This document shows positions 1 through 64,000 of a stretch of DNA of 64,000 bases, in pieces. A model generated the notes under the pieces. It saw only the letters and a program-made list of their open reading frames with translations, ran no database searches and was not told the DNA's origin. Position numbers and translations under genes: made by a program. Position 1 is the first letter of the stretch. Each line of letters starts with the position of its first letter. Source of the stretch: Bilabrum cf. latius (lineage: Eukaryota); assembly GCA_965178125.1 (NCBI GenBank), contig OZ237746.1:496001-560000 (forward strand), given 5' to 3'.

Positions 1-1
1 T

Positions 2-3000
2 CAGCCTCAGCCTCAGCAGCAGTTGCAGTTGCACGCCGAGCAGCAGCTTCAAATCGTGCAGGGGTAGCATGCCGCGCAGCAGTTGTACATCGCGTAGCAT
101 ACTCCGATGCAAGGCAACTCGCAGGCACAGGGGAGTGCCACTACAGTTCTGTTGGATGGTAATGCACCCGTCACTCACTACCTGCCCAGAGACCAAGTCA
201 CAGAGGCGATGGTACATGCGCACCAGGCGACTGGAGTGAACAGCGTCCCGTCTGGACGGGATGCGCAGGGCCGGCACAAGGCAGGCCCGGGCGGGTCCGG
301 CGGGGCAAAGCGCTCCTCTGCTCGACGCAGCAAAAGGCAACAAAAGAAGCAAGAAGCTGCAGCTGAACAGTAGAGTGATGCCATCATCAAAGAGCAGGCG
401 GCGGCTTCAGGTGATACAGGCATGCCCGCTACTGAGTCTGAAGGTGGTGCAGCTGGCCGTAAGCGAGCTAGGCCTCGAAGCAGAACCAGATCACTGGGCT
501 CTGCGCCTGGTGCTCCAACAGCCCGAGATGCCCCTTCCAAGCATCAGGAGTGTGCCGACGTGCCTGGAACTCTAGCCAGCGGGGCGGTGCCCTCCAGCAA
601 GAAGCGACGCACCGGGACTGGAACAAGTGCTGGTGGCGGAAGCGCTGCAAAGACTGCGGGGTCGAGCGCACCAGCAGTCGAGGCTGCCGAGCAGGATGAT
701 GATGACGCAGATGATGATGACGCAGACGACAAGGAGATCGAGTACGTAGAAGCGGTGCAATCGATGAGCTAGGAGGACAGGGACAGACAAGAAGCGCGTC
801 GGCTGCAAGATGAGGAAGAGAGGCGGGTGTCGCCGCGGCGAAGGGGGGCGAGGTGGAAGTAGTCCCCGCAGGGGGATGCGTCAGGAGCAAAGCCTCATGC
901 TGCATCCAACACCCCCAGCCGCGCCTCTGTGGGCAATAATTCCGAGTTCCTGCCGGACGACTCTGACTTTCAAAGCGGCTCAGAACGTACCTCCGCCCGG
1001 TAGAGGGAAGAACCCACGCATCCTCACAAACGCCGAGCATCCCGCGCAGCCGCTGCCACAGCGCGAGCTGCTCTTTAGCAGATCTAGGAATAGTCTGGTG
1101 AGCGCAGCTCCAAATCGGACGCAGACGCTGATTCGAACTCAGGTGCGGATACTGATTTTCAGCAGGATGAAGATACCAGCGAGGCCGATTCACATGATGG
1201 CAGTGGCCAAGCGCCTGGACGGCGGCGGCCTGGCATCACACTGGCGCACACACGCGCTGAGTCTTCGACTTCGTCCTAGGCATCCTTTCCTTCTATGGCC
1301 CTGCCAGATCCTGCTTCATTGCAGTCTTCGATACCTGCAAATTCTGCATCCGTAGACTCTGGGTCTGTACCTGTGCCTGCAACTGCCCGAGGTACGACGT
1401 AGCCGAAGGAGATGCCAGCACGATAGCCCGCCCGCAAACGCGCCTCTTCAAAACAGGCAAGCCACGATTCAGTCCTTGTAAATGGCCGCTACAAGTCGAC
1501 AGGGCACGATTCAAAGATGTCTGCTTCACGTGGAGGAGTGAATGGAACAGCTGAGAATCGTGAGCCAGACATGGCGACAGCAACGGGCAGCAAGTCTCGC
1601 GGGAACCATCCGGCCACATCGGGGAAGACGAAGCCATTCAGGCTGCCTCGGCCTGCGTAGGGTGCCGCTGCTTCTACAGGTAAGGAAAGTTCGGCCCTCG
1701 ACAGCGTGAGGTTGGTGGCTCTCAAGCGTTCCTCTAGACAGCGGGTTGGCAAGCGCGGGCACATGAATGCTGTTCATGTACCCTCGCTAGAAACCTAGCC
1801 AGCTGCTATCGATCTCACTAGCGGGGAGACTGGCTCCAGTGCAGCTCAGCCAGCATCCTCCTCATCCTCGTCGTCCTCCTCATCATCAATGTCAATGGAG
1901 GTCTCTACACGGAGAGCCAGGTCTCGGTCTTCCTCCGTAGTGCCAGTCTCAGATCCCGCCATGGATGTCGTATCCCGCCTTCAACTTGTCAGGACCGGTG
2001 CTGTTGACGCGTCTCACCTCAATATTCAAGTCAACGTGGTGCTGGACGGGGAAGAGGTGTGTGCCTAGTCGGTCAGCGGCCAAGACGCAGTCGATCTGCT
2101 AAGCCACCCTGCCCTCTTCAGCAGGATTAAAGTCGGCTTGCAGAGCGGCCCGTCCGCATAGGCTTAGCAGGCACTGCCAGCTGCAGCAAGTGCGTCAAGC
2201 ACTCGGGAGTCAGGCCGGCAACGATCAGGAGCCCCAGCTCCTGCCCCTCCCTCAAACCCGGCTGCTGCTCCAGTCCTCGCCCTTGCCCCTGATGCAGGCG
2301 CAGCAGCGGGCTAGGCTGAACAACCGGCACCCACCACGGTAGTTCACGTTGGCGCCGAGCACCGCGGTATTGCGACCATACATGCCAAAGAGCTGGTGCT
2401 TGGGTCTGCCACAGGTGGGATCGAAGCAGGGGGGACAGTGCCGGGAGTTGAGAACCCCACTACAACTGATCCTCACGAGCTGCTCTTAATGATCGCCAGC
2501 GGTAGGTTTCGGTACCAAGTCGAGCTTGTGTACAAGTTCCTCGGTTATTCCAAGGGCAGGCAAAATCTTTTGAAGAAAGCAGTGATGATTGTCATCACAA
2601 GACCCGCATCAAAGCGACTGTACGATGACATTTCAGATGGTCCGGGGGCTGATATCCTTGCGCGTCTTGAGGGTGTTCCCAAGGCGGCATGCGGCATAAT
2701 CGGGTGCACGTTCTCGGACGGTTCTGCAGGCAGTGCATTCGCGGTAGATCTAGAGGCGGTTTATGGAGGGATGCCCAAGAAAGCAGCTGGCGACAAGGCT
2801 TTTAAGGTCAAAGACGCGCACAATAAATTGAACCGGAGTGGCGCTTGGAAGAAAAAAAAGACGCCTTTCCTAGCGCATTGCGTCGTGGCTTGCCAGACGC
2901 CGCGAGGCGATGCCATGCCTGTTCCGGTCGACTTGTGGCCTCCATGCCCCCAAACTTCTGCAGTAGTCAAGTAGCGAGATGATGATATCAGGGCACAGGG

Positions 3001-6000
3001 AGGCGACAGATTCTCCTCATTTCAGCCCTGGGATTGCGCAGCAAAAGGTACAGCAAACGATGGTGCTCGGGTTGCTGGTGTTCCTGCTGTGGCTCATTCC
3101 AAAGCTGCCGCGAGGATGCGCGACTATCGTCGGGTGAGCGGGGATTCAGAGACTGTGGACGCCACGGTAGGATTACCGCATCGTAAGATCAGGTCTAGTC
3201 GGCCTGTTGTCGAGTCTGATCTTGATTCTGAGGACGACGGTGTGGACACTGCAGGTGAAGGAGAGAGTGGAAATCAAGCATCGGGCTCTGCCGCGTTACA
3301 GAATCGGGGCGGATTTGGCAATATTGCCCCCAGCTCCAGCCCTGGTTAGCCGCCCAGCCCTCCGGCTGGGTGCGTCGGATACTTCGTGTCAAAGGATGGG
3401 GGAATCAGGGCGCAGCTTCACGGCCCTGCCATAGGGAGCTCCAGCGATGACCTGAACGATGGCCTTGGCACAACTGGATCTCGAGGGTCTGTCCATCCCG
3501 TGCTGAGGGAGCCTGGAAACCATTTCTCAGAGTATTAGAGCAAGCGGATGCACCCTGTATTTTCCAAAGGAAACAGTAGTTCCTCGGCATTCATGCTCGT
3601 TTACTCCCGAGTTAGCGCGCAGAAGACGAAGGAGTGGATGCGTATCGAGAAACACGTCAATCTGGCCACCGGAAAGGACTAGGCACAGCAGCAGCCTTCG
3701 GCCGCGTCGGCCCCATTGGATTTATCTGACGACGCTGATTCCGGTAGTAGCGATATCGAAGAGCTTGGACAGGCGACTGCTTCTGGCACGGGCAACGGTG
3801 GCAGGGGCAAGGCCAGCAAGGCAGCAACGTCTCGAGGCCGCAAACGAAGTCCGCTGCCAGGTGCAGAAGATAGCGAGGATGAGTATGAGCCCAGTCCGGA
3901 CCGCGCACAGTCTCGCAAATCCAAGTCGAAGTCTCCAAAAAAGAAGAAAGCAACGAAAAGCTCCGCAAAAGCGAGCGCACGGAGCAAGAGCAGCAAGGGC
4001 GGAAAGGCAGCCTCTAGCAGACAGAAGCAGAGCAAGGCCGCCCAAATGGCCGAATAGTACCCAGCCACCGGTGGCCATGACCACGAGCGATACATGCCCC
4101 TGCCTGAGGTAGACCCCCACGTTCGGCTGAGGCAGTACATGCATGCAGTTGCAGCGTCCAGGCAGGAGTGGTAGTCCCACTGGCAGGCCACGATACCATC
4201 CAGGCAGTACCCGGTTCTGAAGCCCGTGCAGGATGTGCTGCTGCCTGACCGCGCGCGTCTCGAGGCCGTCGTGAGAGCGAATGAACGGGCGCAAGAACGG
4301 TGCGTGGAGTTTGTGAGATCCTACTGTGCCGTCCTACGCGCCGTCAACGCGCGGCGAATGCTCGCTGCAGCTCTGCTGCAGGGCTCCACAGATGGCACTG
4401 GTGCTTGCGCACTGGTGCCAATGGCTTCTGTGGCCTGGAAATAGAACCGCCAGCTCTCTGCTGTGGTTGGAGTCGACGAGAACCTTGTCGGTGCTGCGAC
4501 AAGCTCAAAGGTGCTGGCCGTCTACCAGTCAACGGTTGTGTTGGGTGCTGATAACGAGGTGACTGAGGCGGGCGCCGCCGCTAGTTCCAGGTCATAGCAT
4601 GGCTATGGAAGCGGGGGTGCCCTTGTCATGCGATCTGATGATGATGTTGAACGTGTTGCCGCGCTGGTATCCAGTGAATAGCTGCCACAGGACGCTCCCG
4701 TTCTTGTGGACACTCGCTGGCTGGTTGCGTGGATCCAAGGTGCGACCGGCCTGCAGGTGACGGGAGCCAGGGCCAAGTCCCGGATGCAGCAGAAGATGGA
4801 GTCGATGGCTCGGTCCGGTTCCCCTAGCCGCAGCAAGTCCTCAGCTTCGCCCAGTAAAGGCTCGCGCCGCACCGACGGAGGGGTCAATCTGCCTGCCTCG
4901 GACGTCGGCAGCATCACCAAGCTGCTCGGGAAGTGGAAGGGTGAGCTCAGCACAGAGATGCTGGTTCGGAGGGGCAGCGAGAGGATGTCGGATTCGGTTC
5001 TTGATGCAGACAGTGAACTTGCCAAGAGCTCGTCCGTCCTGTCATCAACCAAGGTGGGGAGCTCATCAGCAGGCCCGTCGAGCGGGGCAGGTGCAGGCGG
5101 TAACGTTGTCGATGTCAGCGACGACGAAGATGAAGAACATCTTGCTGGAGGCAAGGGTGGCAGCAACTCACACGGTCGTAGCAAAGGAGCTACACCAAGC
5201 CAGATTGCGATGAATGACGACGACGATGATGACTTGGAAATCATGGGCTCGAGCTCCGGTGACCAAGTGGCAGGATCTGGGTCTGCCAGGCTAGACAGGA
5301 GCGAGACGCAGGACTCTAGCGTCATCCTCCAATCGAGTCAGAGCCAAGAGCCCACCACGGAAGCGCAGGCTAGGGCTAAAATACTGCAGTGGTCTGACAT
5401 CGATTGGACTGATGGTCTGCCAAATGAACAGCTGCACGAAGCAGCGATCCAGGCAAAGTAGAACGGCGGTGCGTCGGCATCATCAGCCATGACAGACGGC
5501 GATGAATCCACCCCAACGGAACAGGATCCTGTGGTGGCAGGCGGGATGGCCCGGGCTAACTTGTGCACGGCTTCAATCACTTCTGGAATAGCGCTTGGAA
5601 CAAGGGAGGGGAAGAGGACGGAGCCCAACAGATCGGTAGCAGTCCAAGTCGATGCTGACGTAACCGAAGTGCTTGATCCGCGGATGCTGCCAAGCACATG
5701 CACGGTGACCGTGCAAGCGCTGCTGGCAATGGTACGGCCTGACCACGGCCTGGGAATAATTCAGGATGGAATCAAGCGCGCCGTTGCGCATTTTCAAAGC
5801 GCAAATGGAGGTGGCGTGCCCATGGATTTGGATATCCTCGACGGCGCCGCAAGTGTCACAAGCTAGGCCAAGGGCAAGGGGACAGGCAAGGGCAGCGGAA
5901 AGGGCAAGGCAAAGGGCAAGACTTTAGACGATCACTTCGGCGAGTCGGCTGGTGCAAGTGGAGACGCTAATGACGTGTCTGAGGTTGTGATCAATGAGAT

Positions 6001-9000
6001 CATGGCAGGCAAAGGAGCCCTCTACAGGATGCAGCAGAAGGGAGGTGCTCTCGCCGGACTCAACCTGCTTGAATGCGACCCGTATGGGAGCACCTGGGCA
6101 GAGAACCCTGGTGCTGGATGCCCAGAGGCTGCCAGCAGATTCATGCTTAGGGCTGCGGGCAATTACGCTGATGGAGACTAGCAGCAGCAGGTGCGGCAGT
6201 AGCGTAGTGCGTCTGCGCGGACTATCTCGCTGACGGAGGACGGGGAGGAGGAAGACATGGATGGAGGCAATGCCATAGGCACGGGCAACGGCACGGCAGC
6301 CGGATCAACCAATGCCAGCGCAGAGGCTGGCACTGCGTTGCCGCACCAGAGGCCAGGTTCCAAGCGAGCACGTGGATCTGAACCGGGACACGCAAGACCG
6401 GCGAAGAAGGCTAGAACAGGGACAGCAGCGCAGGAAGTCTCTGGTGTCAGTGCAGTTGACAGCGAATCTTCCATCTAGCTCATGTCTCCCGCTCTATAGG
6501 GCATATGCAGGTCTGACACCGGTCGGGCCATCCTTGCCCGAGCTCTCGCGGGAAGCGAATTAGGCGAGTCGCGCCTGCTTTCCAGTGATCTTGAACGACA
6601 GGCAGTTTGCGTGGATCGCGCCGTAGTGATGCTGCGTCCTAGCGGCGGGGACGAGAGGAGCAGCAGCGACCGGAGTGGGAGGGTGGAGGCACGAGGTCGC
6701 AGAGGTGGTCGAGGCCGCGGGCGTGGGCGTGGGCGTGGGCATGGGCGTGGCAGCAGTAGCGGCAGTAGCGGCAAATCTGGCTCGCGAGCGAGCTTACACG
6801 CGGCATCTTCAGCCCATGCTGGCGATGGTGTGTCCCTTGCGGTGCGGTTTCCGACAGATGAGGAAGGCGTCTTCTCTGCGTTTGTCCGGGAGATGGTAGT
6901 GAGAGCGGCAGGGCAACTGTGCCACTGGGGCGCCCCCGCTTTCCGTGACCTCGCCAAACTCGTGTATTCCACGCCTTAGTCTCTCAAGATTATTGCGGGG
7001 CTGCCGCTGCAGTCCAAGGCGAAGCGTGGGCCAAAGAGAGGTGGCTCGAAGAGAAATTCAGCTGCTGCCGCTGCTGCCACTGCCGCAGCTGCTTCGTCCG
7101 GTGGGGGTCCAGCCAAAGCGGAGAGTGCTGCCAAAGACGGTAAGAAGGGGGCGGGTGGTAACGAGCAAGCATGCCTTGGCGCGATTGGGAGCCTGGGTTC
7201 TGGCGCTAGAAAGACCAAACGAGGCAAGGGAGGGGCTTCCTCCGCCGCATCTGCCGATTCCAACGATGCCGCAAGCGACGAGAGGCAGGAGCCGTCCGTC
7301 TAGAACCGTCCGCCATACATGGCGATCGTGTCAAAAGACTTGCTAGCTAGCATTCGCAGGCGGATGTAGTTCGAACAGGACGTGCTAACTGCCGTCAACG
7401 CTTCCCTTCGGAAACCGCATCGAGCTGCCGACGAGGACCTTGCGCTGCGGGTCGTGCTGGCCATGCAGCCGGTTGATGCTGTTGGGAGCGAGCTGCTTAG
7501 CAAGGAACTGGACCAGCTGGCAGCAGTGGACGTCAAATCGCTGGAGAGGGCAAGCATGGAGGAGGGTGTCGTAATCGAGCTCGACGGGGACGGGGACGGG
7601 GACGAGCAGGACGAGCAGCCTCCCATGGATCAAGACGGAGATGGCGACGACGACGATGACGACATTGAGATGCTGTCAGCGCCAAGTGCCAAGGCTAACA
7701 AGCAGCCCAAGCCTGCAAAGACAATTGGTCCTGCTGATTCTGCTACTAGCAGCGATGCACAACAAGGCCCAGCTCCGCCACAGGAGCTTGCATCTGTGCA
7801 GGCATGCGAGACGAGGATGGACTGGCTGCTTGCAGCTCATGCCGCTCTCATCCCCCGCCGGCCTCCCATCGATCAGATCGCCAGCAGCTGGACACTGAAC
7901 GATGATCTCGCGACAGCAGATCACGGGTTGCGGCCCAGTCGCAGTGGAAGGTAGGTGGTGTACTTGCAGGGCCTTGAAACTGTGATGCGCATGTGTCTTC
8001 GCCTCGCACTGCAAGAAGTCACGAACGCAGAGCGGCTTCGTGCAATCGATTAGCTGAGGCAGAATGCTGTGAAGGACCCATTCGCAGGCACAGAAGGTGG
8101 ATGGGTGAACAGGTGGGCGAGTTTGATCGACCACCAGCCCGGCTTCAAACCAATGCCAAACACAGCAGCTGATTTGCCAGAGGAGCACCGCGAATGCTTC
8201 GTGCACGAATAGCACGAACGTCCGGCACAGCAAGCCGCACCTGCCACGTTTCCCAAGGATTCTCAGGAACATGCTGCAGAGTACCTTGAGTGCGACCCGG
8301 CAATCGTGCTACCGGAGTGGCATCTGCAATCACTTGCAGCGGCACTGGCCGCCATTGGACGACCCGCGCACTACTTCCACAACCGCCAGAGAGACTGCAT
8401 GGTCGCCCTCGATGCTGCGAAACAGGCCAGGAACAAGGTCGATGAGATGGACGAGGTCCGCAGGAAGCTGTATCGCGGGAAGTTCTTGCAGCGTCTGCTG
8501 AAACGTGCCATGGAGGGTCGTCCGAAGCCAGCCAATGGCGTTTCGCTGGGAATCCCACTATCCTACAACCAGTCCTTCCGAGTATTTCCTCGAGCGTGGC
8601 TGGAGAGCTGGCGGCAGTACTACAGCGACCGAACTGCGTCGGCGCAGCTGCCAAGCTGCTCGCGCTCGCCCATGCTTGAGTTCCTATCACCGGCGTGCAA
8701 GAGCGCGGTAGATCGCGCCCTCCAGCAGGCTAGCTAGTTCCGCTCGAAGCAGCCAGGCGGCGGCGTCACCAAGGACCAAGTGGACGACATCTTGCTGGAG
8801 CTGGGCGCCCCTGTCATTGACCTGCCTCTGTACCTACTGGCCTACCTGCAGTTCATTGCACCCTTGGTCGTGCCTTCAGGCCGTGAAGCAGTGCCGGCCT
8901 TACCGCTGGGGCTGATCCCCGCAGGACATCGTGCTGCTGGATCTGGTGGAGACAGCAGCCAAGCACAGGCAACGGAAGTTGTTTCTGCAGGGCAGGCCGG

Positions 9001-10681
9001 GGCTGCAGCTTCAGCTGCGTCTGGAACCTCGTCCTCGGCTCACCACTCGTCATCATCATCATCAGCATCATCATCATCATCATCATCATCATCGTCGTCG
9101 TAGTCGTCATCATCAGCCGCAGCGGCAGCAGCCTACCCCTTGCCATCAGCTAGTGTGAGCGCAGGTGGAAGGCAGGATTCGCTGGGCGACACCGTGGTGG
9201 AAGGGTGCGACAAACACGGACAGAACTACCTCAGGGTAGGCGCGTGGCCTTGGTACACTGGGAGCACGAATGTCGGCGATGTCAGCATCATCTTGGGGAA
9301 CATGCTGCACGCCCGAGCGGTGGATCCAGGCATCCAGCAGGTGGAGATCGTGCAGGAGGAAGAATACCGCGATCTCGTGAAGCACTTCGCGTTCCCCTGC
9401 CCACTGGGTGACCTCCTTGAGTCGGAGGCTCAGATGGCCCACAAGCATCACGCCCACCTGGACGCTCAGCTTGAGGAGGCCAAGGAAGCCGGGGACACCA
9501 AGGCAGTCAACACTCTCCGGAAGGCTATGGCGGCGCCACCCGCTCAGGACGACATCGACATGACGGGCTGCTCTACCGAAGAGCAGAGGGAGAGGGCGAT
9601 GCGGGTGGCCTACTTGAGACACGCATGGTCGCAGTGCGCCCCCACTGTCCGTGTGCAGGGCGAAGACGGTCTGGATGCAGGCAGAGACGTGGGCAGGGTA
9701 TTCGGCAGGACTGCAGGCCTGCGTGATGCCATCATGCAGGGCGGCGAAACGGTCTTGGACAGGCAGCTCGCGTCGATTGCCGCTGCATAGGGTGCGCAGC
9801 ATGACGGCCCTACCGTGACGCAGCTGCTTCAGGACGCATGGTGCGCGGCTGGCCCACCGAGGTCCCTCGAATAGCAGGCCGTGTTTGCTTCCCTGTCGTC
9901 AGGGGCCTCATCGTCTGCAGGCAACAACGGTGCTGCTGCATCTGTAGCCGTGGACCTGGTTGAGGCAGAAGATGCCAAGGGCGGGGAGGAGCTTGCAGAG
10001 AGCCGAGGCGCCTCTGCGGACTGGGCGGAAGAGGCGCGCCTGCACGCATGCAGGCGGGGCGGCGCTGCCTGGACACTTGCCCCTTCGATCGATGTGGGCG
10101 CGCTTCGCGCGAGGCTTGAGCGCTCTGCCGTCCACCGGCATGATGTATCGAAGTCGGGGCTCTCGCGCACTCCCTTGTTCGTGCGAATCGTTCAGTCTTC
10201 ATCTGACGCACCGTCGGAGCAGCCGCTGATCCCGCAGGTGCCCGGCGAAGACTTCGTAAAGGGGATCGAGGAGGTGCTACCCATTGGCGCGGACACATCC
10301 CTCGGGCTGCTCGCCAGCAGCAAGTAGTCAGACGAGTCGAGCGGCAGGTCTCGAAGGCAGGGCAGCCGCAGACTGGCGGGCGGCACGCTGCACCTGGAGC
10401 TCGTGTCTCTTGAGAAAGTGGGCGATGTCGGCGTGCAGCTGTTCCAGATCGCGACGGATAGAACCAAGAGCTCAGAGGCAGCGACGGAGAAGTGCATGTC
10501 GTACCTGTCCGGACAGGTGCATCGGACGTCGACCCACTAGCTAGAGCACGACCTTCCAGTGTCTGCGTGCGACGTGCCTGTCCTCGGCCTCGTGTACTAT
10601 GCGGTGCAAGAGGGAGGCAGCAGCAGGGGCTCGTCGTCTTCCTCTGGTGCTGTCGGCTTCAGCGGGTCGCTCATGACTTGA
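2..10681 (+). CDS. USP48/UBP26-like ubiquitin-specific protease, 5'-partial (end of USP domain, DUSP-like repeats, C-terminal UBL-like region); read with TAG=Gln
   Basis: One frame (ORFs 107, 422, 2396, 3089, 3716, 4226, 4706, 5489 ... 9881) is interrupted only by TAG (>40) until TGA at 10679-10681. It contains the USP terminal motif SSSAFMLVYSR (AFMLVY at 3587-3604), DUSP-like motifs VDTRWLVAWIQG, LNDDLATADHG and VFPRAWLESWRQY, and the C-terminus ...GAVGFSGSLMT*, similar to USP48/UBP26 tails. The Cys and His boxes are not in the window. Confidence 0.7.
9047..9115 (+). repeat. (TCA/TCG)n microsatellite encoding poly-Ser within the USP-like CDS
   Basis: Direct trinucleotide repeat tcatcatca.../tcgtcg; one unit is TAG. 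Confidence 0.9.
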
Positions 10682-15272: not shown

Positions 15273-15274
15273 TG

Positions 15275-34477: not shown

Positions 34478-35073
34478 GCATTTAGGTCCATTCAAGTTTT
34501 TGGGACTGTGATTCATATGCTTCGAGTAGTAGCTCTACCGTACAGATGCAGAGCTGGGATGAAAGCACATGCAATCGCACTTCAAACTACGAGTAGCTGC
34601 AGTCCACCGTGCAAGCTGCTCCCAGGCGCCCAAGCCAATGGAAGTACAAAATGGTACGTTTGCCCTGGTCCTTGAGTACATACACCAGTCTTTGTGATCG
34701 CGGGGAAACACGCTTGCATGGCCAGCCGCCGTACCTAAGAGAGGCATGTACCAGTCGATCGAGGCTCGTCCTTTGTGTACGATCTTCAGAGTATTTGACC
34801 ATTGCGATGGCTCAGCGATCGATCTGTAGCCGCATATCAAGGGGGAAAGTGACCCGTGACTTCCGCACAGAGGGCGTCGAACTGGGCGCAAAATCGGGTG
34901 CGATTGGGATCTCTGTCGCCCGGCCGGGTATGGATAGTAGGCCAACACCGATTGGGCCTTGAAAAATACTAAAGTTAATTGTCTAGACATCCACGGTCGC
35001 ATGTTGCAATGACATGGATATGTACATGACTACCAGAAGAGGCCCGCATCCCGGCCAGAGGTTTGCTCGCTCA

Positions 35074-36846: not shown

Positions 36847-37019
36847 GCTGGCTGGCTTGCACAGCGCAGTAATATTGTGCGTCCACTCGTGTGTAGCTGC
36901 AGTTGCGACCGCTCGCCGCACTTTCAAGAAGAAGATTAAAACCGCTCGCCGCGTTGCCGCCACCATCTTGAAGTGTAGGCAACTTCAGCCCAGCAAGCAA
37001 CTAGGTAGGCCTGAACGAT

Positions 37020-40919: not shown

Positions 40920-41046
40920 AGACAAAAACCAAGCAAACAAATCGATGGATTTGGTTTAGTCTCAAAGCTGGGAAAAACCAACTTCAAGTGAATCAAAGAA
41001 AAGGGGCTCACCAGGAGCTCATCACACCACACCATCGGCCAGCGCC

Positions 41047-54967: not shown

Positions 54968-56289
54968 TCACTTGCCCCCCGCCCCGCCGGCAGCAGGCCC
55001 TCCCTCCTCCCCTCCCTTGGCCTCCTCCTTCTCCACGCTAAGGTCCAGCTCCTTCTGCACGTCCCACAGCGTGGCCGCGCTGGCCCGCAGCTTGTCCGCC
55101 TCGCTCTCCTCCAGGGGCACGTTCACCGTGGATACGATGCCCTTCCTCGCCAGGGCGCAGGGAACAGAGAGGAACACCTCCTGGTCGATGCCGTACATCC
55201 CTTTCACGCACGTGCTCAGGGGAACAACTCTGTGCTCGTTCCTGAGGATGGCCTTTGCCAGGGAAGCGCAGGTCAGCCCGATGGCGAAGCAGGTGTAGCC
55301 CTTCTTCTCGATCACCAACCCCGCCGACTTGATCACGGCGCCGTGCACCTGGGTCCACTTTTCCTCGTCGTCCTCCTCGCCCATCTTGGGGTTGAGCTGC
55401 TTGAGAGTGACACCGCCCACGGTCAGCTGGCTCCACACCGCCACGCTCGAGTCTCCGTGCTCGCCCAGGATCATCCCGTGCACGCTGGTGGTCGCAACTC
55501 CGAGGCGGTCCGCCACCAGGGAGCGGAACCGGCTCGTGTCCAGCGCGGTGCCGGACGCGAACACACGGGACAGTGGGAATCCCGATAGCTTCCAGGTGAT
55601 GTATGCCATGATATCTGCTGGGTTCGCGACGACCATGATGCACGCCTCGGGCGAGTACTTGACGATCTGAGGGACGATGCCCTTGAAGATCTTGAGGTTG
55701 CGGCCCACGAGAGCCAGACGGCTCTCGCCCGGCCGCTGGCGCACTCCCGCGGTGATTATGACTAGATCCGACCCAGTAGACACGGAGTATTCGGTGCTGG
55801 CCTTGACACGAAGAGTGGGGCTGAACGCGCGGCCGTGCGTGAGATCCAGGCCCTCGCCCTCGACCTTGTCCTTCTGCACGTCCACAAGAGCCAATTCGCT
55901 CACCAGACCCTGCGCGATGTATTTGCTGGTAACAAATCTTAATTTTAATCATGATGCGCTCGATGCATGACCACCAAAGCCAGCAATTGTACCGAGATTC
56001 GTCTGTTCGCGACGTGTCTGCAATGCCTGCAATCGAGTGATCACCACGAGTGTCTCACCTAGTTTTGGATGGCAAACGCAGCAGCCATTCCAACTGCGCC
56101 GATACCAACGATAGTAACCTTCTTGTGCGGCAGGCGCTGGTCCTCCTTGAGATATGATACCGCCTCAGCCGCTGCCTCCTTTCCGAAGAGTTTAGTGCGT
56201 GTTTCGTGGCACAACTCGAAGCCTCTGCGGTCCAGAGATGCGTCATCCATCACAACTCCAGACATATGGGGGCTAATTGCGGCTGCCAT
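54968..56289 (-). CDS. LDH: L-lactate dehydrogenase, 390 aa
   Basis: Exon 1 56289-56059 ends in the codon TAG; intron 56058-55910 (GTGAGA...CGCAG); exon 2 55909-54968 (TGA). Motifs: KVTIVGIGAVG, N(Q)GLVSELALVDV, ITAGVRQRPGESRLALVGRN (Gln specificity residue), GTALDTSRFR, GEHGDSSV, KKGYT. Confidence 0.95.
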
Positions 56290-57459
56290 CTTGACTTCAG
56301 TGACTTTATGTGAAGGGTGTCTTCGGTTGATGGCGGCGACTAGGTCGAGATTGCGTGGTGATTGGTCGGGCGAGGTGTGATGAATGGATCGGATCAGATC
56401 ACACTGTTTCGAGATGCATCTTGCCTGCATCCTCGGACCAGCTGATCGGCAGACTGTTCGACACGATGCGACTACATTCTGCGACGCCGCAGATAACCGA
56501 TGCTTTGCTTGCCAGCCGCTTGCACCGCAATGGCAGTACTCAACTGCCAGTGCATGCAGCAGGAGGCCGGAGGCTGCAAGTGGAGTATGCTATCGGGAAG
56601 CGTTGCTACCTGAGCCACACTAGCTCTCATCAAGCCCATGAGTGAGCCAAGCTCGCCACTGGTACACACTGCCATAACGACCTTTGCAGACAGCCCGGCC
56701 CTGCAACGCTCGACGTTGAGACTGCTTGCTTGGCAGCTAGGCACTTGTCCGGGCTGGATGCCCCATAGACAGGCACTGCCTTGATTGTTCGCGGACCGCT
56801 CCAGTGTATGTGATACCGATTCGCGATGGAAACAAATACCTAGTTGATTCCAGTTCCTGTCATCACGCAGGCTTCAAACGGCCGACGACTGAATTTCGGA
56901 GCACGTACGATACGTCAATGTACGAGTGCGCCTACTTAAAGGCTTTTGTGGCATCCTATCCTGCAAGTTGAAGCAAAACATTTCTCCCACCCGAGTGCGT
57001 GCGCGCAAAATCGGTAACGTCGAACACGACTCCGGACACAGCAACCCAGGCATCGCCAGCAGTGGAGTGACGAGCCAACTCCCGGGCAGAAATAGTTACA
57101 TTTTGACTTGATCGTTCTTGGTGTGGTAACCCCGCATCAGTCTCAACCCGCCTCCACGGCCGCGGCTCGGAACCAAACGAGTCCAGCTACCGATGGCGTT
57201 GCCCACTGATTCCGTGCTGGGGTCGGTGCCTAGACTGTCGCGATTCAGATATGATGCGATCAATATTAGGCTGTAGACTCCTACCGGGGTGCACATGCGT
57301 GCTGCCTAAGCAAAGACCCATTCGAACTAACGCGACAGGACGATTCGGTGAATGCACCACAATGCGGTGCACTTGCAGTTTGACGTTCCGCTGTGATGAT
57401 GATGACGTAGTGCCCCACATACTGATAGCATTACATCTTCATTCATTTACTCATCCTAA

Positions 57460-59370
57460 TCAGCCCATGGCCTCCTCCAACACCCTCACGCATTCTTCGT
57501 GACCGCCCAGTCGAGCCGCCTCCAATGGACCCACCACTGTCCCATCCTCCACCTCGCCCTTCATCTCCAGCCCACCTCCAAGTTTGCCCAGCCTCAGCCT
57601 CCTGGCCAGCTCCAGCGGCCTTCCTTCAGCAGCCGCCTAGAACACCATCCCAGCGTCCCTCCGCACCCCGACCGCTTGCATCCACAGCCTCGTGCGCACC
57701 GCCCTCGGGGATTCCACGGCTAGCACACCCCGCTCCCACTCGCTCGTCACGTCAGTGCCCGGCCAGCGAGACTTCAGCTCGTGCAACACGGCAGCCGCAA
57801 GCCGGGGTCCTGCTCCCACCCCCACCGGTGACTCGCCCGACTTGGGCTTGGTCGGATCCGATCCGCTCGAGCGACCTTCTCCCGCTCCCGCTGTCTCGTC
57901 CAGTAGCCTGGCCCAGCGCACCATCTCGTCCTCAACAGGGGAAGGGGCATTGCCGAATACATCGAACATGAGACTGCTCACCAACGCTCCCTAGGAGACC
58001 GGGCGCCGGGGAACTCCATCGCCTGCCGACCTGCCTTCCTTGCCCCTGCGCCCGACCCCCGCCCAGACCTGCACCGCCATGTACTCGGGAAATGAACGGG
58101 GGACGGGGGACCCCGCCTACAGGAGCCCAGCCACGATGGAGGGGTTGGCATGAGCCTCCAGGGCTAGTTCCAGTGGGGTCTGATGGTCGTTGTTCTTCGC
58201 TGTCACGTCGGCCCCGCAGCTGACGGCAAGTGCCAGCATCTGCACAGCCCCTTTGTGCTTCTTCCAGATCCGGTCCATCTCCGCCGCGTTGTAGGATGCG
58301 AGAAAATGCAGCAGGGTGCTTCCACCGGATGCTTTGGCCCGCACAGAGGCGGTGCTCTTGCCCAGGAGTAGCCTGGCGACCGGTAGCAGCACGTCCGAGG
58401 TGCAGCAGTGCAGCGGGGGGGACTCGCCCTGCGCAATAACAACAAGAAGCGACAGCCGTCGGAGGATTGAAACTGGGTGAAGCATATAGTGCGACGAGTT
58501 CATGATTCCATGATGAACGTGCGCTGCGGGCGGATTCAGCACGAAAGCAAAGGCAGTCACGGCGTCGTCCACGTTCAACAAGTTGCCACCACTGCCAATG
58601 GCAGGCAAGCCTCTGGGTTTCTCGTTTGCTTACCGAGCATGCCCGATCCGGGTCTGCCCCTGCCTCCAGCAGCATTCCTACGATTAAAGCGGAGGACCGT
58701 ACTTGTTCAGCAGTTGGAGTCGACCTACCGGGACGCAGTGCTGTACGGTGATCCCCGTCATCGAACATCCGGATCGGCATCGGAATGGCAGCATGTAGAG
58801 GTGAAGATGCGTTGTGCGGCAGATTTGGCTTGGCTCCATGCTTGAGCAGCAGTCGAACCATATCTACATCTTGCATCAAGCAAGCTTCTTCGATTGGGGA
58901 ATATATAGACAACTGCAGGTGATGCTAAGAACGAGGTTCGGAACGGTTGACATTGGATATCTTGTGATTTTCATCAAATGCTGTCACAATACACTTACCG
59001 TACCAGTGTGTAAACTCATGTTCCAGTGGTATCCTGTGTTCGGGTCAGCTCCGGCACCGAACAGGCATGTTGCTAGCACCGGATTCTTGTGTCGAACAGC
59101 GAGTCCAAGCAACGTCACAAACAACCTACGGTGACAGCTGCGTTGGTCTTGCACACCAGGCCCTCGGACCTGGAATAATATATCAGGGGAGATGCTTGCG
59201 TCGGTCACTGCGCTGATGGCATCCTGAAACTAGGATTTGTCACGACAGACAGCCGCTTTCTCAACGATAGGGTCGATTAACTTGTGGATTTCGTCAATGG
59301 CACCAGGTTCAGCAATATACTTTGAAGTCCTAAAGTGGTATTTCCACGGACTATCTCCTGAAGCTGCCAT
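57460..59370 (-). CDS. Ankyrin-repeat protein, ~539 aa
   Basis: Exons 59370-58999, 58912-58634 and 58428-57460 (GTAAG...CAG introns, phase 0); in-frame TAGs; ends in TGA. Ankyrin motifs: GADPN, LLLKHGAKPN..SPLHAA, GADVTAKNNDHQTPLELA, PLEAARLGGHEECVRVL. Confidence 0.8.
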
Positions 59371-59560
59371 GCCTTCTGTTGAAGTGGCTTGGGACCCGGG
59401 CGGGCATCCGTTCCAGGCGGTCGCGTTCCGCCGGTTCCGCTGCCACTGCTGGCGGTGCCGATTAGCCGGGATGGTCTCCTGTGAGCACTTGCCATCCATC
59501 CTTGGGTACACAAACGAAATACTCAATCATGGATGTGACACCACGCAAGGCTGGCACTCA

Positions 59561-61153
59561 TCACTCCCGCTCTGCCCCAGACCGCAGCATCATCTGCTGC
59601 ACTCGAGCAAGGATGTCCCCGGGCAAGCTGGCCTGCTCCTGCCTCCCCGTACCGAGGCACTTGATCGTCACACCGCCGCTCTACGCCTCCTCTTCGCCCA
59701 CCAGCACGGCAACCCTGGCCCCCGCCCTCGACGCAACCTTGACCGCCTTGGAGGCTCGACTCACCGCCGCCACCCTCCTCACGGCCACGGGCTCCCCCGC
59801 AGGTCCAAGCAGGGACTCACTGAGTACGTTCGCTTTGTCTTCAGAACCGGCAGCTTCGCCGTCGCCAAACTTGCGACTGGCTGGCGCGCGGCCATGGGCA
59901 GCTGCACGCGACAGCATCGATGCTGTGCGGAAGGCCAACCCACGGGGCCCTGATGCGCCACCGTGCGATACACCCTAACCGAAAGGCACCACCACCACGA
60001 GCGGCGGTGCCAGCTTGTCCTTATCATTCCCATTCCCGCTGTTCCCCAGCATCTCCTCCAGCTCCAACAGCCTGTCCACCCCAGCGGCCCACCCAGCACC
60101 GGGAATGGCAGGCCCCCCCATCGCCTCGCTCAAACCGTCGTATCTTCCCCCCGCGAGCACCGTGCCTAGTCGAGCCCCAATGGGCTCGCCCTTCATGCCC
60201 CGCTGTCCAGCCACCACCTCGAACGCCGTGTGACGATAGTAGTCCAGCCCCCTCACCAGCCGGGGGTCCTCCACCACGGGCACGCCCTCCGCCCTCAGAT
60301 GCTCCAGAATCTCCTCGTGCCTCCTGCGGTCCTCTCCCAGCAACAGTTCCCTGGGGTCAGGGGCCCCCTCCAGGGCATCTTGGTCCTGGGGGCTCTTGGA
60401 ATCGAGCACGCGGAGGGGGGCGCCGCGGGCCAGCCTCTCCCTGGATGTGTGGGACAGGTCGCTCGACCGCGTCTCGAGGAACTGAGCCAGGGCAGCTTCG
60501 TACTTTTTCCTGCTTTCTGAGGATCCCAGAGAGTTTAGACGCACCTCAAAGCCTGCCCCGTGCAAGGGCAGCCGCTGCAGGAAGGTCCACCCTGCCAGGA
60601 TGATTTCGGCGTCTGCCTCCGGCGAAGGGTCCCCGAGAATTTCAACGCCGCACTGCAGGAACTGGCGGTACCGTCCTTGCTGCGGTCTCTCGTACCGGAA
60701 CATGGGGCCGAAGTACGAAGCTCTTGCTTGCCAAGCACCTCGAGCGGACGCCAGCTACTGGGCCATGCCGCTCTGAATTGAAGCTCGCACGATCCCAGCA
60801 GTTCCTTCAGGCCGCAAGCACAAGACTGCACCTCGTCTCGACTTAAACGAGTACATCTCTTTCTGCACTACGTCCGACGTATCGCCCAGAGTTCTGGAAA
60901 AAACCGAACTTGATTCGACCACTGGGGTTTGCCACTCTTCAAACCCAAAAGCAGCTGCTGTCGTTTCAAATGTCGCCTTAATCAGCTGTAAACGGCTAGA
61001 AACAGGTGGAATAATGTCTCGCATACCTCGTATGGATCTTGTGGGGACGGTCTTCGAGGGTATCGACTCCCTCGAAATGGCCCGACACTGTTGGCAAGCT
61101 GCTCCAAACTGTGAGCTACCATGTGATAGCGTAGATTGAAGACTCTAGAACAT
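59561..61153 (-). CDS. hisS: Histidine--tRNA ligase, bacterial-type (probably mitochondrion-targeted), 530 aa
   Basis: Intronless frame with 4 TAGs (61145, 60755, 59975, 59681), ending in TGA TGA. Motifs: IRGMRDIIP, KEMYSF, LRPEGTAG, GPMFRYERPQQGRYRQF, LVRGLDYY, GGRYDGL, and anticodon domain GARVAVLVGEEEA(Q)SGGVTIK. The N-terminal extension is presequence-like. Confidence 0.95.
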
Positions 61154-61308
61154 ATGTTTGAGGTTGTTAGTTTTGAAACATAATCGTGCCATGTCTTTGA
61201 CTGTGATAAGTACGCCAACATCCCACAATGGAGCTCCGAGTTGCCTGCTTGTTGTGCATGTTGTGTGTCATTGTGATGACTTTGCAAAGGGTTGCTTGGC
61301 ACGGAACA

Positions 61309-61867: not shown

Positions 61868-62197
61868 TTCGATTTTTTTTTAATTTTTGGGGGGGGTGCA
61901 GAACTCAAGAAGAAGATAAAAACTCCGGACAAGGAAAAAAGTCCGTTTCTGTACGGTGCCTGGCCTGGTTGATAGAGACGCGCGCATAGAGTGATACATG
62001 CGATTAGCTTAAAATTTAAATTTCTTAACGAATTATATATAAAGACTGTGAAACAAAGTACGTCTCTATAGCTCTGCTCACAACTGAGCTGAGCATCAAC
62101 GGCCGTAGTTCCGTTTAGAACCCTCTATCTTCGCGAACCTTCGCTTCGAATTACCAAGTCATGTCAGTGCCGTTTCGACACCACATCCGCGATTCCA

Positions 62198-64000
62198 ATG
62201 TCCGGTCAAGTCGATGATTCCAAAGCCATTGCAGTCGAGGAAGGAAAATTCTCAGGAGGGAATCCAATGAGAGACCCTGAAATGGTGGAGAAGTCCCATG
62301 ATGTTACCAGCAAGAGCACAACATGCTGCACATTCAAGTACGTCCTACTGGCAAGTGTCGCCGTCCTCATCGTCGGAGGCGCCGTTGCAGCGGCCGCAAT
62401 TCATTTTTCGAAAGATAGTTCGTCTGATTCGGGCTCTATTTCGACAGTTGAAAGCGTATTCGGTCCTGGGACAGTTGGCGAAGAAGCCGCCGATTGCGCT
62501 GATGAATGGCTTGAAAACCAGCGTGTATCGCCCGCACAGTATTATACCCGCGTACAAGTTGGATCTTCAGACTCATTTCCTGACTGTGTCGATGTGGATG
62601 CAATGAACGAAGCAGCTGCAAGCGTTTTTGGCGTCAACGCATCGGCGATTGTCCTGACTGCAGATGCCTCATCTCGCCGTTTGTCGCGCGCAGCGGTACG
62701 GCGAATGCAGGCAGGTAATTTAGTTCTAGTACAGCTTATATTCTCGTACTCCGAGGACGAGTCAGCGACAGTTGCTACACAGGTCCAGGCCAGCGCAGAC
62801 TAGCTTGAGCGGGCTCTGCAGTCCGCTGTCCTGAATGCTACGGGCCAAGCAGCAGCCGTCACGATTCGCGTCATGACAGAAGATATCAGCAATGGCTTCA
62901 TTCTGATGGATACCCTTCCGAGCACGAGCCCAGCTGTGAGCACAAGTTCTGCGGTCCTGGTCAGATGGCCGCAATCTCATGTATCATTGAGCCTCAGGCT
63001 ACTAGCAGTACTGCGCGTTCTATCGTACCAAGGATTGGAAATAACTGATATTGTTTTTCGATATTTTACGCAGGCATCAACCAATGATCCCGGGAATCAA
63101 CCCTCCATTTCATTGGTTAGTAACTCGCAGGAGATGACATGCGTCAAGGTCCAAAGTCAACCACCCAGAGATGCTGAGCACCGCGCTGCTCGGTCTTCAT
63201 GTTTGTCTTTTTTGCTAATGTTCCCACCGAATACTCCGCAGACGCCGACCCCGTCAACATCGCAACAGTCCGTGAGATGATTCGCGGCCACAGCACATAT
63301 CGACAGCACACACCGTGCAGAAAAAATGAAGCGACCTAAACACGCGACAAGCCACTGCATTTTTTCTTGTTGACAATTGCAGGCGCCTGCATCGACCGCC
63401 CCGAGCGACAGTCCGGCCCCTAGCAGCAGCAGCAGCCCGAGTGTAAGCCCATCGCCGAGCATAACAAGCAGCCCGAGTGTCAGCCCCACCCCGAGCATAA
63501 CAAGTAGCCAGAGCGTAAGCCCCACCCCGAGCACCACGGCAAGTGCTACCAGCAGTCCCAGCAACTCACCATCACCAAGCACAACCGCTACCGCGAGTCC
63601 CAGCCCCAGCCCCACTCCAACTCCTAGCCCGGTCCCCCTTGTGCGGCTCTTTGGCGACTCCGTGCCTGCGGCCGACCAGTACACGGTCACACCCACTGCT
63701 GCGACCCAGGCCAAGCAGCTCTCCGACAACTTCTACATGCGAGCACTCGGGGCGGGCAGCTCTGTCCTGGTGTACGCCTGCGATGATGCCACTCCTCCGC
63801 AGTGCAACGACACGGGTGTAGAGAACGGCTCGCACTTCACCGAGCTCGGCGGCAAGGTGTACATTGCAGGCAGGCTCAACAGCGTGACTGGGCTCGTCTC
63901 GTGCACCAGCGTGGGCACGTGCAGCGTGGTGAGTGTTGCGGGCTCGGTGTCGTCTGTCACCCACCTGACAGCGTACAACGGCCGGATCTGGTTCATGGGA
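62198..64000 (+). CDS. Type II membrane/surface glycoprotein with mucin-like Ser/Pro/Thr stalk and probable beta-propeller ectodomain (3'-partial)
   Basis: N-terminal TM YVLLASVAVLIVGGAVAAAAIHF, SRRL motif, and TAG at 62801-62803 read through. Probable exons: 62198-62935, 63074-63115, 63242-63271 and 63383 onward. Includes SPSVSPTPSIT repeats and FTELGGKVYIAG / LTAYNGRIWFMG strands. Confidence 0.65.
63431..63538 (+). repeat. Three imperfect 36-nt tandem repeats encoding SSPSVSP(S/T)PSIT-like units
   Basis: Units resemble agcagcccgagtgt(a/c)agccc...ccgagcataaca. Confidence 0.8.

What the first reader, a model, noticed from the sequence alone, without database searches (positions are those of the whole stretch)
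1..64000. Non-standard nuclear genetic code: UAG is a sense codon (Gln) while UAA/UGA remain stops, in a probable stramenopile
Seen: nearly every gene is chopped in the ORF track only at TAG, and the pieces stay in one frame. Examples are a 10.7 kb frame with >40 TAG and no TAA/TGA, and the 13.5 kb URB1 exon. Essential domains (HisRS, LDH, URB1, exonuclease Exo III, RING) are complete only with TAG read-through, and all 13 resolved gene ends are TAA or TGA. Known: in nuclear genomes UAA and UAG are almost always reassigned together; UAG-only reassignment (the pattern of translation table 15) is known from only a few protists. Inference: this lineage, which has spliceosomal introns and an aureochrome-type gene, has independently reassigned UAG to Gln. 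I do not know of such a code in a stramenopile nuclear genome, but I cannot check novelty here.
Basis: partly seen in the sequence, partly recalled or inferred. Interest (0 to 1): 0.96.

Follow-up and report, generated by a model that had tools for sequence, protein, structure and literature searches.

The report
UAG read as glutamine, stramenopile-like eukaryote
This stretch of a GC-rich protist nuclear genome uses the stop codon UAG as an ordinary codon, most likely for glutamine, while UAA and UGA still end genes; this rare change of the genetic code has apparently not been reported for the stramenopiles, the group the organism seems to belong to.

Summary
With TAG read as sense, the longest stop-free frame grows from 901 to 4509 codons; TAA as sense gives no gain. 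Eleven frames (16,636 codons) hold 113 in-frame TAG. In their off-frames TAA occurs 44 and 61 times and TGA 247 and 329 times. Pfam finds URB1, HisRS, LDH, RING/PHD, a 3'-5' exonuclease and a bZIP+LOV protein, each whole only if TAG is read through.

Spliced contigs from two RNA-like runs remove five GT-AG introns and keep TAG unchanged.

TAG most likely means Gln:
- Close relatives have Q at 5 of 6 TAG sites and K at 1.
- The LDH column has Q in 14 of 19 homologs.
- Three relatives' ORF calls stop exactly at a CAG-Gln of the window.
- Q is 1.9-fold enriched beside TAG.

TAA and TGA terminate: two paralogs end at the same residue, one on each.

The bZIP-LOV gene is closest to Cafeteria, which suggests a heterotrophic stramenopile. 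No tRNA or eRF1 could be examined. This is a new member of a known kind. Seven literature searches found no such code in a stramenopile.

The parts
2..10681 (+). Frame of 3559 codons, open at its 5' end, with 45 in-frame TAG; ends on TGA. No Pfam family.
   Evidence: A close relative's fragment P0123 (77% identity) has Q, Q and K at three of its TAG sites.
11037..15272 (+). Paralog A: 1411-codon frame for a Cys-rich protein with hydrophobic stretches, 9 TAG, ends on TAA.
   Evidence: (no Pfam family).
16123..20148 (+). Paralog B: 1341-codon frame, 10 TAG, ends on TGA at the same aligned residue as paralog A. Both copies have TAG in the conserved block GCV-TAG-LAIRHEAG.
21569..26365 (-). RING + PHD finger protein frame of 1598 codons with 12 TAG, one inside the RING domain (residue 722 of 710-753); ends on TGA.
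27231..28226 (+). Frame of 331 codons with a CFAP97/Hemingway domain (cilia and flagella associated) and a Gly-Ala dipeptide run; 1 TAG.
29291..32260 (+). Aureochrome-type gene: bZIP (residues 360-404) followed by LOV/PAS (521-617), with Q-rich tails. 5 TAG, three of them in or beside Q runs. Ends on TGA.
32524..33726 (-). Frame of 400 codons that ends ...Lys-Arg-TAG-TAA. This is the only place where TAG could itself be the terminator.
35071..36984 (-). Frame for a PQQ/BamB-like beta-propeller protein, 637 codons, 4 TAG, ends on TGA.
37020..40955 (-). Frame of 1311 codons with a C-terminal 3'-5' exonuclease domain (DNA_pol_A_exo1, residues 1252-1297). 5 TAG; ends on TAA 14 residues after the domain.
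41047..54576 (-). URB1/Npa1 homolog: one frame of 4509 codons with 18 TAG, ends on TGA.
54968..56310 (-). L-lactate dehydrogenase gene: exon ending at 56059, GT-AG intron 55910-56058, exon 54968-55909; ends on TGA. One TAG (56059-56061) is the last codon of exon 1, after the GxGxxG motif.
56863..57438 (-). Frame with a cytochrome b5-like haem-binding domain; 3 TAG in the frame as listed.
57601..59368 (-). Gene with weak ankyrin-repeat matches, covered by a twice-spliced transcript contig (introns about 58429-58633 and 58913-58998, GT-AG). 4 in-frame TAG in the spliced reading frame of 492 codons.
59561..61267 (-). Histidyl-tRNA synthetase of alphaproteobacterial type with an N-terminal extension. 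4 TAG; ends on TGA TGA.
62193..63300 (+). Expressed gene of unknown family with two GT-AG introns (62936-63073 and about 63116-63241). 1 TAG in the first exon.

Best explanation
The window is nuclear DNA of a GC-rich, intron-bearing, probably flagellated protist. Its affinities are with stramenopiles, and on the one informative gene it is nearest to the bicosoecid Cafeteria. In this organism UAG has been reassigned from stop to glutamine, while UAA and UGA remain the terminators. This is the pattern of NCBI translation table 15.

Shown here: TAG is an ordinary in-frame codon (about 0.7% of codons, roughly one in seven Gln codons). It stays unchanged in spliced mRNA. It corresponds to Gln in relatives. 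At least one closely related organism appears to share the code.

Inferred from how other such codes work, not shown here: a tRNA-Gln with anticodon CUA reads UAG, and eRF1 has lost recognition of UAG but keeps UAA and UGA.
For: 1. TAG is sense.
- Frames of 4509, 3559, 1598, 1411, 1341 and 1311 codons appear only when TAG is read through. The TAA control gives no gain.
- There are 113 in-frame TAG in 16,636 codons, against 125 and 124 in the off-frames. Off-frame TAA is 44 and 61 and off-frame TGA is 247 and 329.
- Conserved domains span TAG codons: URB1 N- and C-terminal domains, HisRS, RING and LDH.

2. TAG is not edited or spliced out.
- Runs X6 and X8, from two studies, hold contigs that skip five GT-AG introns. 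The DNA runs X1 and X5 do not skip them.
- These contigs match the window with 0 other letters. They carry 6 in-frame TAG in spliced transcripts (LDH 1, ankyrin-like gene 4, gene at 62193 1).
- A further 4 TAG lie in an unspliced HisRS contig.

3. The meaning is Gln.
- Fragments from close relatives have Q and Q (P0003, HisRS), Q, Q and K (P0123) and Q (P0125, LDH). That is 5 of 6 Q and 0 of 6 S, L or E.
- The LDH TAG column has Q in 14 of 19 homologs, K in 4 and R in 1.
- Three relatives' ORF calls (P0003, P0123, P0255) end exactly where the window has a CAG Gln codon, 3 of 3.
- Q is 1.89-fold enriched within 3 residues of TAG (51 seen, 26.9 expected). This equals the self-clustering of Q (1.9) and differs from the values for S, K, E and L.
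- Several TAG sit inside Q runs.

4. TAA and TGA are stops.
- Paralogs A and B end at the same aligned residue, one on TAA and one on TGA.
- LDH ends on TGA at the same C-terminal residue as relatives P0124 and P0125, and HisRS ends on TGA TGA about 10 residues beyond most homologs' C-termini.
- Reading TAA as sense adds only 0-54 codons to any frame.

5. Lineage.
- The bZIP-then-LOV architecture is present.
- The best one-stretch match among 1.84 billion representatives is from Cafeteria roenbergensis/burkhardae, with a near-identical basic region.
- PMC13737086 (abstract and passages read) describes aureochromes as unique to stramenopiles and present in the heterotrophic Bikosia and Nanomonadea.
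- A CFAP97 domain gene fits a flagellate.
Against: - No tRNA gene is in the window (ARAGORN, Rfam) and no genome is held. The decoding tRNA and eRF1 are therefore unseen.
- No peptide evidence exists here.
- In the alignment of the two window paralogs (36% identity), TAG pairs with S five times, Q four times and W twice. That includes S in the conserved block MAR-x-AWSG.
- HisRS TAG-171 aligns with S, N or T in bacterial homologs, next to an insertion.
- One close-relative site has K.
- The RNA nature of X6 and X8 is inferred from the spliced contigs and uneven depth. The run records do not state it, and the tool labels X6 'probably DNA'.
- Contigs drop rare variants, so partial editing cannot be excluded.
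- I could not see the relatives' DNA. That their ORF calls stop on TAG is an inference.
- The stramenopile placement rests on a single gene. LDH and HisRS gave no lineage signal.
- One frame ends TAG-TAA, so some use of UAG as a terminator is not excluded.
Confidence: 0.8

Rival explanations
1. UAG is a sense codon but stands for another amino acid. Candidates are serine (as reported for the green alga Scotinosphaera), leucine (as in the rhizarian exLh and some ciliates), or lysine or glutamate.
For: In the paralog A/B alignment TAG pairs with S five times, including the conserved block MAR-x-AWSG. HisRS TAG-171 aligns with S, N or T in bacterial HisRS. One close-relative site has K, and 4 of 19 LDH homologs have K.
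Against: - Close relatives (77-89% identical) show Q at 5 of 6 TAG sites and S, L or E at none.
- The LDH column has Q in 14 of 19 homologs.
- Relatives' ORF calls stop at the window's CAG codons in 3 of 3 cases.
- Neighbour composition matches Q (1.89-fold). It does not match S (1.12 against a self-clustering of 1.54), K (1.31 against 2.37), E (0.93 against 1.82) or L (0.64 against 1.14).
- The paralogs are only 36% identical and S is a common residue there, so those pairings discriminate poorly.
Confidence: 0.08
2. The TAG codons are removed or changed before translation, by RNA editing of UAG or by unrecognised small introns, and the organism uses the standard code.
For: Only contigs could be laid, not raw reads. 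Contigs can hide minority edited forms, and the RNA status of the runs is a guess by the tool.
Against: Spliced contigs in two studies carry TAG with 0 other letters at 6 sites. The LDH TAG sits directly at the exon-exon joint and is retained. Removing 113 TAG in 50 kb of coding sequence as introns would need in-frame 3-nt excisions that are not seen in any contig (tables 4 and 5).
Confidence: 0.02
3. The frames are pseudogenes, or the TAG codons are assembly or sequencing errors.
For: None beyond the presence of in-frame standard stops.
Against: - Only TAG interrupts the frames. TAA and TGA never do, there are no frameshifts over 10-13 kb, and off-frame TAA and TGA are abundant.
- The same letters stand in contigs of four runs from four studies.
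- The genes are transcribed and spliced.
- The paralogs share a TAG in a conserved block.
Confidence: 0.01
4. UAG has a dual meaning: mostly Gln but also a terminator in some contexts, as in codes with context-dependent termination.
For: The frame 32524-33726 ends ...TAG-TAA, so TAG could be its real stop. The window has too few verified gene ends to exclude rare UAG termination.
Against: All 11 long frames run on through TAG to a TAA or TGA. The verified ends (LDH, HisRS, paralogs A and B) use TGA or TAA. A dedicated pair of stops makes ambiguity unnecessary.
Confidence: 0.07

Closest known systems
Nuclear code of the fornicate Iotanema spirale (UAG = Gln, UAA and UGA stops; Panek et al. 2017, PMC5304391 seen in search listing; summarised in PMC11687900, passages read)
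   Same: Only UAG is reassigned, it goes to glutamine, and UAA stays a stop. This breaks the usual coupling of UAA and UAG.
   Different: It is a metamonad, unrelated to stramenopiles. In the present case the genome is GC-rich (52-69% in this window) and intron-bearing. The tRNA and eRF1 basis has not been examined here.
Ciliates with UAG = Gln only: Protocruzia tuzeti and two phyllopharyngean lineages (PMC11687900, passages read)
   Same: The codon table is the same: UAG = Gln, with UAA and UGA as stops.
   Different: Ciliates are alveolates with many code variants. Here the lineage signal is stramenopile: a bZIP-LOV gene nearest to Cafeteria.
UAR = Gln codes (NCBI table 6: many ciliates, Hexamita, Streblomastix, ulvophycean algae, Amoeboaphelidium; listed in PMC11687900)
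   Same: A stop codon is reassigned to glutamine, one C-to-U step away from CAG.
   Different: In those codes UAA is sense too. Here no in-frame TAA occurs in 16,636 codons. Reading TAA as sense adds only 0-54 codons to any frame, and three frames end on TAA.
Scotinosphaera (UAG = Ser) and rhizarian exLh (UAG = Leu), both cited in PMC11687900
   Same: UAG alone is reassigned in a nuclear genome.
   Different: The amino acid differs. Here close relatives show Q at 5 of 6 sites and S or L at none.
Cafeteria roenbergensis/burkhardae (bicosoecid; genome paper PMC6972860, passages read)
   Same: It has the nearest bZIP-LOV protein: the basic region is nearly identical, with 38% identity over 312 aligned positions. 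Its nuclear genome is also GC-rich (about 70%) and has introns.
   Different: The only non-standard code the Cafeteria genome paper mentions is the mitochondrial one (UGA = Trp), so its nuclear code appears standard. The window's organism is clearly a different and more distant taxon.

Membership tests
Nuclear code with UAG = Gln and UAA/UGA = stop (pattern of NCBI table 15) | In-frame UAG inside conserved, evidently functional genes | tested here: met
   There are 113 in-frame TAG in 11 frames. URB1, HisRS, RING and LDH are whole only with read-through.
Nuclear code with UAG = Gln and UAA/UGA = stop (pattern of NCBI table 15) | UAG positions correspond to glutamine in homologs | tested here: met
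   Close relatives have Q at 5 of 6 sites. The LDH column has Q in 14 of 19 homologs. Relatives' ORF calls end at the window's CAG codons in 3 of 3 cases. The sample is small, and the paralog and HisRS-171 sites are ambiguous.
Nuclear code with UAG = Gln and UAA/UGA = stop (pattern of NCBI table 15) | UAA and UGA still terminate | tested here: met
   Paralogs A and B end at the same residue, on TAA and TGA. LDH ends on TGA at the same C-terminal residue as its close relatives, and HisRS ends on TGA TGA about 10 residues beyond its homologs' ends. TAA as sense adds only 0-54 codons.
Nuclear code with UAG = Gln and UAA/UGA = stop (pattern of NCBI table 15) | UAG is present in mature mRNA (not edited or spliced out) | tested here: met
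   Spliced contigs of runs X6 and X8 carry 6 TAG with 0 other letters. Only contigs could be laid, not raw reads.
Nuclear code with UAG = Gln and UAA/UGA = stop (pattern of NCBI table 15) | A tRNA-Gln with anticodon CUA | not testable with these tools
   No tRNA is in the window and no genome is held.
Nuclear code with UAG = Gln and UAA/UGA = stop (pattern of NCBI table 15) | eRF1 altered so that UAG is no longer recognised | not testable with these tools
   eRF1 is not in the window and the rest of the genome is not available.
UAR = Gln code (NCBI table 6) | UAA used as a sense codon together with UAG | tested here: not met
   There is no in-frame TAA in 16,636 codons. About 38 would be expected from the CAA:CAG ratio applied to TAG (my arithmetic). 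Frames do not join when TAA is read through.
UAG = Ser (Scotinosphaera type) or UAG = Leu (exLh type) | UAG positions correspond to Ser or Leu in homologs | tested here: not met
   0 of 6 close-relative sites and 0 of 19 LDH homologs have S or L. S pairs with TAG 5 times only in the 36%-identical paralog alignment.
Aureochrome (bZIP + LOV blue-light transcription factor) | bZIP domain on the N-terminal side of a single LOV domain that has the flavin-binding NCRFLQ cysteine motif | tested here: met
   Pfam finds bZIP_1 at 360-404 and PAS_9 at 521-617. GRNCRFLQG is aligned to PtAureo1a LOV, the best PDB match at 118 bits, against 113 bits for phototropin. Light sensing itself was not tested.
Stramenopiles (Bigyra, Cafeteria-like) | Phylogenetic placement by 18S or many genes | not testable with these tools
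   There is only one lineage-informative gene, the bZIP-LOV gene nearest to Cafeteria and then to Heterosigma aureochrome4. LDH and HisRS were uninformative.

The most novel reading that the evidence does not exclude
This is the first departure from the standard nuclear genetic code in stramenopiles. It is an independent UAG-to-Gln reassignment in a GC-rich, Cafeteria-like heterotrophic flagellate. At least one sister species shares it, so it would be fixed in a small clade. The organism is already present in sequencing runs of four studies, so it may be in culture and open to tRNA, eRF1, proteomic and ribosome-profiling work.
Probability: 0.55. Interest if true: 0.85.

Novelty: new member of a known kind. 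Interest (0 to 1): 0.78.

Why it matters
Nuclear code changes are rare, and UAA and UAG nearly always change together. Each independent case in which UAG alone is captured tests ideas on how release factor specificity and suppressor tRNAs co-evolve.

Three features make this case useful:
- The genome is GC-rich, with TGA as the main stop. That is an unusual setting for theories that tie stop-codon capture to base composition.
- The supergroup had no such case in any of the literature searches run here.
- It seems to be shared by a close relative, which would allow the change to be dated.

There is also a practical side. Standard-code gene calling cuts this organism's genes into pieces. The fragments P0003, P0123 and P0255 in public protein collections look like that. 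Its proteome would therefore be badly under-annotated in databases and in environmental surveys.

Tried and rejected
- Whole-genome search: no genome is held for this window, so no tRNA-Gln(CUA), eRF1 or 18S could be sought.
- tRNA and RNA families in the window: none found.
- Earlier findings of the scan: none for this genome. A word search gave one unrelated UGA case on other DNA.
- Search with the 3559-aa protein for relatives' fragments: only 1 hit, because low-complexity words crowded the candidate list.
- Two scans of JGI metagenome contigs with paralog A and with an A/B alignment: pattern matches were found, but no relative was confirmed.
- ESM Atlas on LDH and on the URB1 C-terminal part: family confirmed, no lineage information.
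- Cluster look-up of 10 LDH relatives: no organism names.
- The paralog A/B alignment as a test of the amino acid: not discriminating (Q 4, S 5, W 2, shared TAG 1, others 5).
- No listed run holder is on record as RNA. RNA status of X6 and X8 was inferred from spliced contigs only.
- Reading TGA as sense gives longer random frames in this GC-rich DNA and large extensions when TAA is the only stop. I treated this as noise, because in-frame TGA is absent from all frames that carry domains.
- A green-algal origin (prompted by Ala/Gly/Ser-rich proteins and the Scotinosphaera code) was considered and dropped after the Cafeteria match and the Q evidence.
- Supplements of papers were not available. 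The P10K and aureochrome papers may list taxa or codon tables there that bear on novelty.

Full report
**What is in the window.** The 64 kb are GC-rich (52-69%). Under the standard code no stop-free frame exceeds 901 codons. When TAG alone is read as sense, frames of 4509, 3559, 1598, 1411, 1341 and 1311 codons appear. The matching control with TAA as sense gives no gain, and TGA as sense gives only the scattered lengthening expected in GC-rich DNA.

The long frames are real genes:
- 41047-54576 (minus strand) carries the Npa1 domain near its start and the NopRA1 domain near its end, so it is URB1, with 18 TAG between and around them.
- 21569-26365 (minus) has RING and PHD fingers.
- 29291-32260 (plus) has a bZIP followed by a LOV/PAS domain.
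- 37020-40955 (minus) has a 3'-5' exonuclease domain.
- 35071-36984 (minus) has a PQQ-like propeller.
- 59561-61267 (minus) is a histidyl-tRNA synthetase.
- 54968-56310 (minus) is an L-lactate dehydrogenase.
- Smaller frames carry cytochrome b5 and CFAP97 domains.

**Is it more than chance?** In 11 frames (49,941 nt, 16,636 codons) TAG occurs 113 times in frame, against 125 and 124 times in the two off-frames. It is therefore not avoided in frame. TAA occurs 44 and 61 times off frame and TGA 247 and 329 times. The frames were defined as free of TAA and TGA, so the in-frame zeros are by construction. What counts is that frames stay open for 10.7 and 13.5 kb at off-frame stop densities of 1.4-3.3% per codon. 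By my arithmetic, that has a chance probability below 1e-20 for each frame. No frameshift is needed anywhere. TAG lies inside the RING domain, inside the HisRS core, and between the NAD-binding motif and the catalytic part of LDH.

**Transcripts.** Eight public runs from four studies hold the stretch 54800-61400 or part of it. I laid four of them on 54600-63300.
- Runs X1 and X5 are collinear with the window.
- Runs X6 and X8, from two other studies, hold contigs that skip five segments with GT..AG ends on the coding strand: 55910-56058, about 58429-58633, 58913-58998, 62936-63073 and about 63116-63241.
- Depth in X6 and X8 differs about 40-fold between genes. This is what RNA looks like, although the records do not say so and the tool labels X6 'probably DNA'.
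- These contigs match the window with 0 other letters. Rebuilt from their coordinates, they contain 6 in-frame TAG: LDH 1, the ankyrin-like gene 4, and the gene at 62193 1. An unspliced HisRS contig contains 4 more.
- The LDH TAG is the very last codon of exon 1 (AAC TAG | GTGAGA) and is kept in the joined form in both runs.

Editing or excision of UAG is thus not the main route. Minority forms cannot be excluded from contigs.

**Which amino acid?**
- *Close relatives.* The protein collection holds fragments from one or more close relatives (77-93% identical). At TAG sites of the window they have Q and Q (HisRS, P0003), Q, Q and K (P0123) and Q (LDH, P0125). That is 5 of 6 Q.
- *LDH column.* In a mafft alignment of the spliced LDH with 20 homologs, the TAG column has Q in 14 of the 19 that have a residue there, K in 4 and R in 1. 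One homolog is gapped.
- *The reverse direction.* Three relatives' standard-code ORF calls (P0003, P0123, P0255) break off inside the proteins, and each does so exactly before a Gln of the window that is encoded by CAG. The two LDH fragments end with the window's own C-terminus. With CAG at 3-6% of codons in these genes, three of three by chance is about 6e-5 (my arithmetic). The simplest reading is that the relative has TAG there, and so shares the code.
- *Composition.* Residues within three positions of a TAG are enriched 1.89-fold in Q (51 seen, 26.9 expected). This is the same as the self-clustering of Q (1.9). S, K, E and L near TAG fall well short of their own self-clustering. Several TAG sit inside Q runs.

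Evidence against this reading:
- The two tandem paralogs of the window (36% identical) pair TAG with S five times, Q four times and W twice.
- HisRS TAG-171 faces S, N or T in bacteria, next to an insertion.
- These sites are poorly conserved, except for one S in a conserved block.

I put Gln at about 0.85, given that TAG is sense.

**Are TAA and TGA stops?** The eleven frames end on TGA eight times and on TAA three times, which by itself is circular. Three observations are independent of that:
- Paralogs A and B end at the same aligned residue, A on TAA and B on TGA.
- LDH ends on TGA at the same C-terminal residue as its close relatives P0124 and P0125, and HisRS ends on TGA TGA about 10 residues beyond its homologs' C-termini.
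- Reading TAA through lengthens no frame by more than 54 codons. If TAA were Gln, about 38 in-frame TAA would be expected from the CAA:CAG ratio.

One frame ends TAG-TAA, so rare termination at UAG is not excluded.

**Who is it?** No genome, rRNA or tRNA was available.
- HisRS is of alphaproteobacterial type, and its only near hit is the unnamed relative.
- LDH is of the animal and protist type and gives no useful lineage signal.
- For the bZIP-LOV region, searched against 1.84 billion representatives, the best single-stretch match is in Cafeteria roenbergensis/burkhardae. The basic region is almost identical. Heterosigma aureochrome4 comes next.
- A 2026 paper (PMC13737086; abstract and passages read) describes aureochromes as unique to stramenopiles and found them in the heterotrophic Bikosia and Nanomonadea.
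- Cafeteria has a nuclear genome of about 70% GC, and its genome paper mentions a non-standard code only for the mitochondrion (PMC6972860, passages read).
- A CFAP97 domain gene fits a flagellate.

I therefore read the organism as a heterotrophic, Cafeteria-like stramenopile, at about 0.7. This rests on one gene.

**How it most likely works.** By analogy with other stop-to-Gln codes, a tRNA-Gln with anticodon CUA, derived from tRNA-Gln(CUG) by one change, reads UAG. eRF1 has narrowed to UAA and UGA. CAG and TAG then interchange freely by C/T transitions, which is what the comparison with the relative shows in both directions. None of the machinery was seen here, so this part is inference.

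**Comparison and novelty.** UAG-only reassignment to Gln is known from Iotanema spirale, Protocruzia tuzeti and two phyllopharyngean ciliate lineages. UAG goes to Leu in a rhizarian and some ciliates, and to Ser in Scotinosphaera (PMC11687900, passages read). The code table is therefore not new. Seven full-text searches that combined UAG or genetic-code terms with stramenopile, bicosoecid, Bigyra, MAST-3 and related names found no report of a nuclear code change in a stramenopile. The Incisomonas genome paper does not mention codons or codes. The P10K paper discusses code variation in ciliates only, in its main text. Subscription journals and supplements were not searchable. I file this as a new member of a known kind, probably the first in its supergroup.

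**Verdict.** My probabilities are: UAG is sense, about 0.97; it means Gln, about 0.85; the organism is a stramenopile, about 0.7. Interest is 0.78.

Noticed in passing
window 57510-57800 and 61293-62165: Short stretches with contig depth far above the surrounding single-copy level in the DNA run X1 (319-653 against 13-15). Many partial contigs, odd joints and loose ends occur there. They are probably dispersed repeats or mobile-element fragments between genes.
   Followed up: no
window 11037-15272 and 16123-20148: Two tandem paralogs (36% identical over about 1400 residues) encode large Cys-rich proteins with hydrophobic stretches and no Pfam family. No relatives were found in JGI metagenome contigs. 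Both keep a TAG in the conserved block GCV-TAG-LAIRHEAGVSGFENVSA.
   Followed up: partly
window 59561-61267 (minus): The histidyl-tRNA synthetase is of alphaproteobacterial type. Its best named hits are Acetobacteraceae, Elioraea and Acidocella at about 50% identity, and no eukaryote other than the unnamed close relative is among the 120 best. It has an N-terminal extension of about 75 residues and insertions, so it is probably an organellar enzyme.
   Followed up: partly
window 27231-28226 (plus): A frame with a CFAP97/Hemingway domain (cilia and flagella associated) followed by a long Gly-Ala dipeptide run. This suggests the organism is flagellated.
   Followed up: no
window 32524-33726 (minus): This frame ends with TAG directly followed by TAA. 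It is the one place in the window where UAG might still act as a terminator, or TAA may be a back-up stop.
   Followed up: no
runs X1-X8: Near-identical sequence is held by runs filed under four different organism labels in four studies. This would fit a small heterotrophic flagellate living as a companion or contaminant in other cultures, or different labels for one organism. I did not pursue this.
   Followed up: no
window 2-10681 (plus): A protein of more than 3559 residues, rich in Ser, Ala, Gly and Lys low-complexity stretches, with no Pfam family. It has 45 TAG, a density of 1.3% of codons, about twice the window average of 0.68% and three times that of URB1 (0.4%).
   Followed up: no
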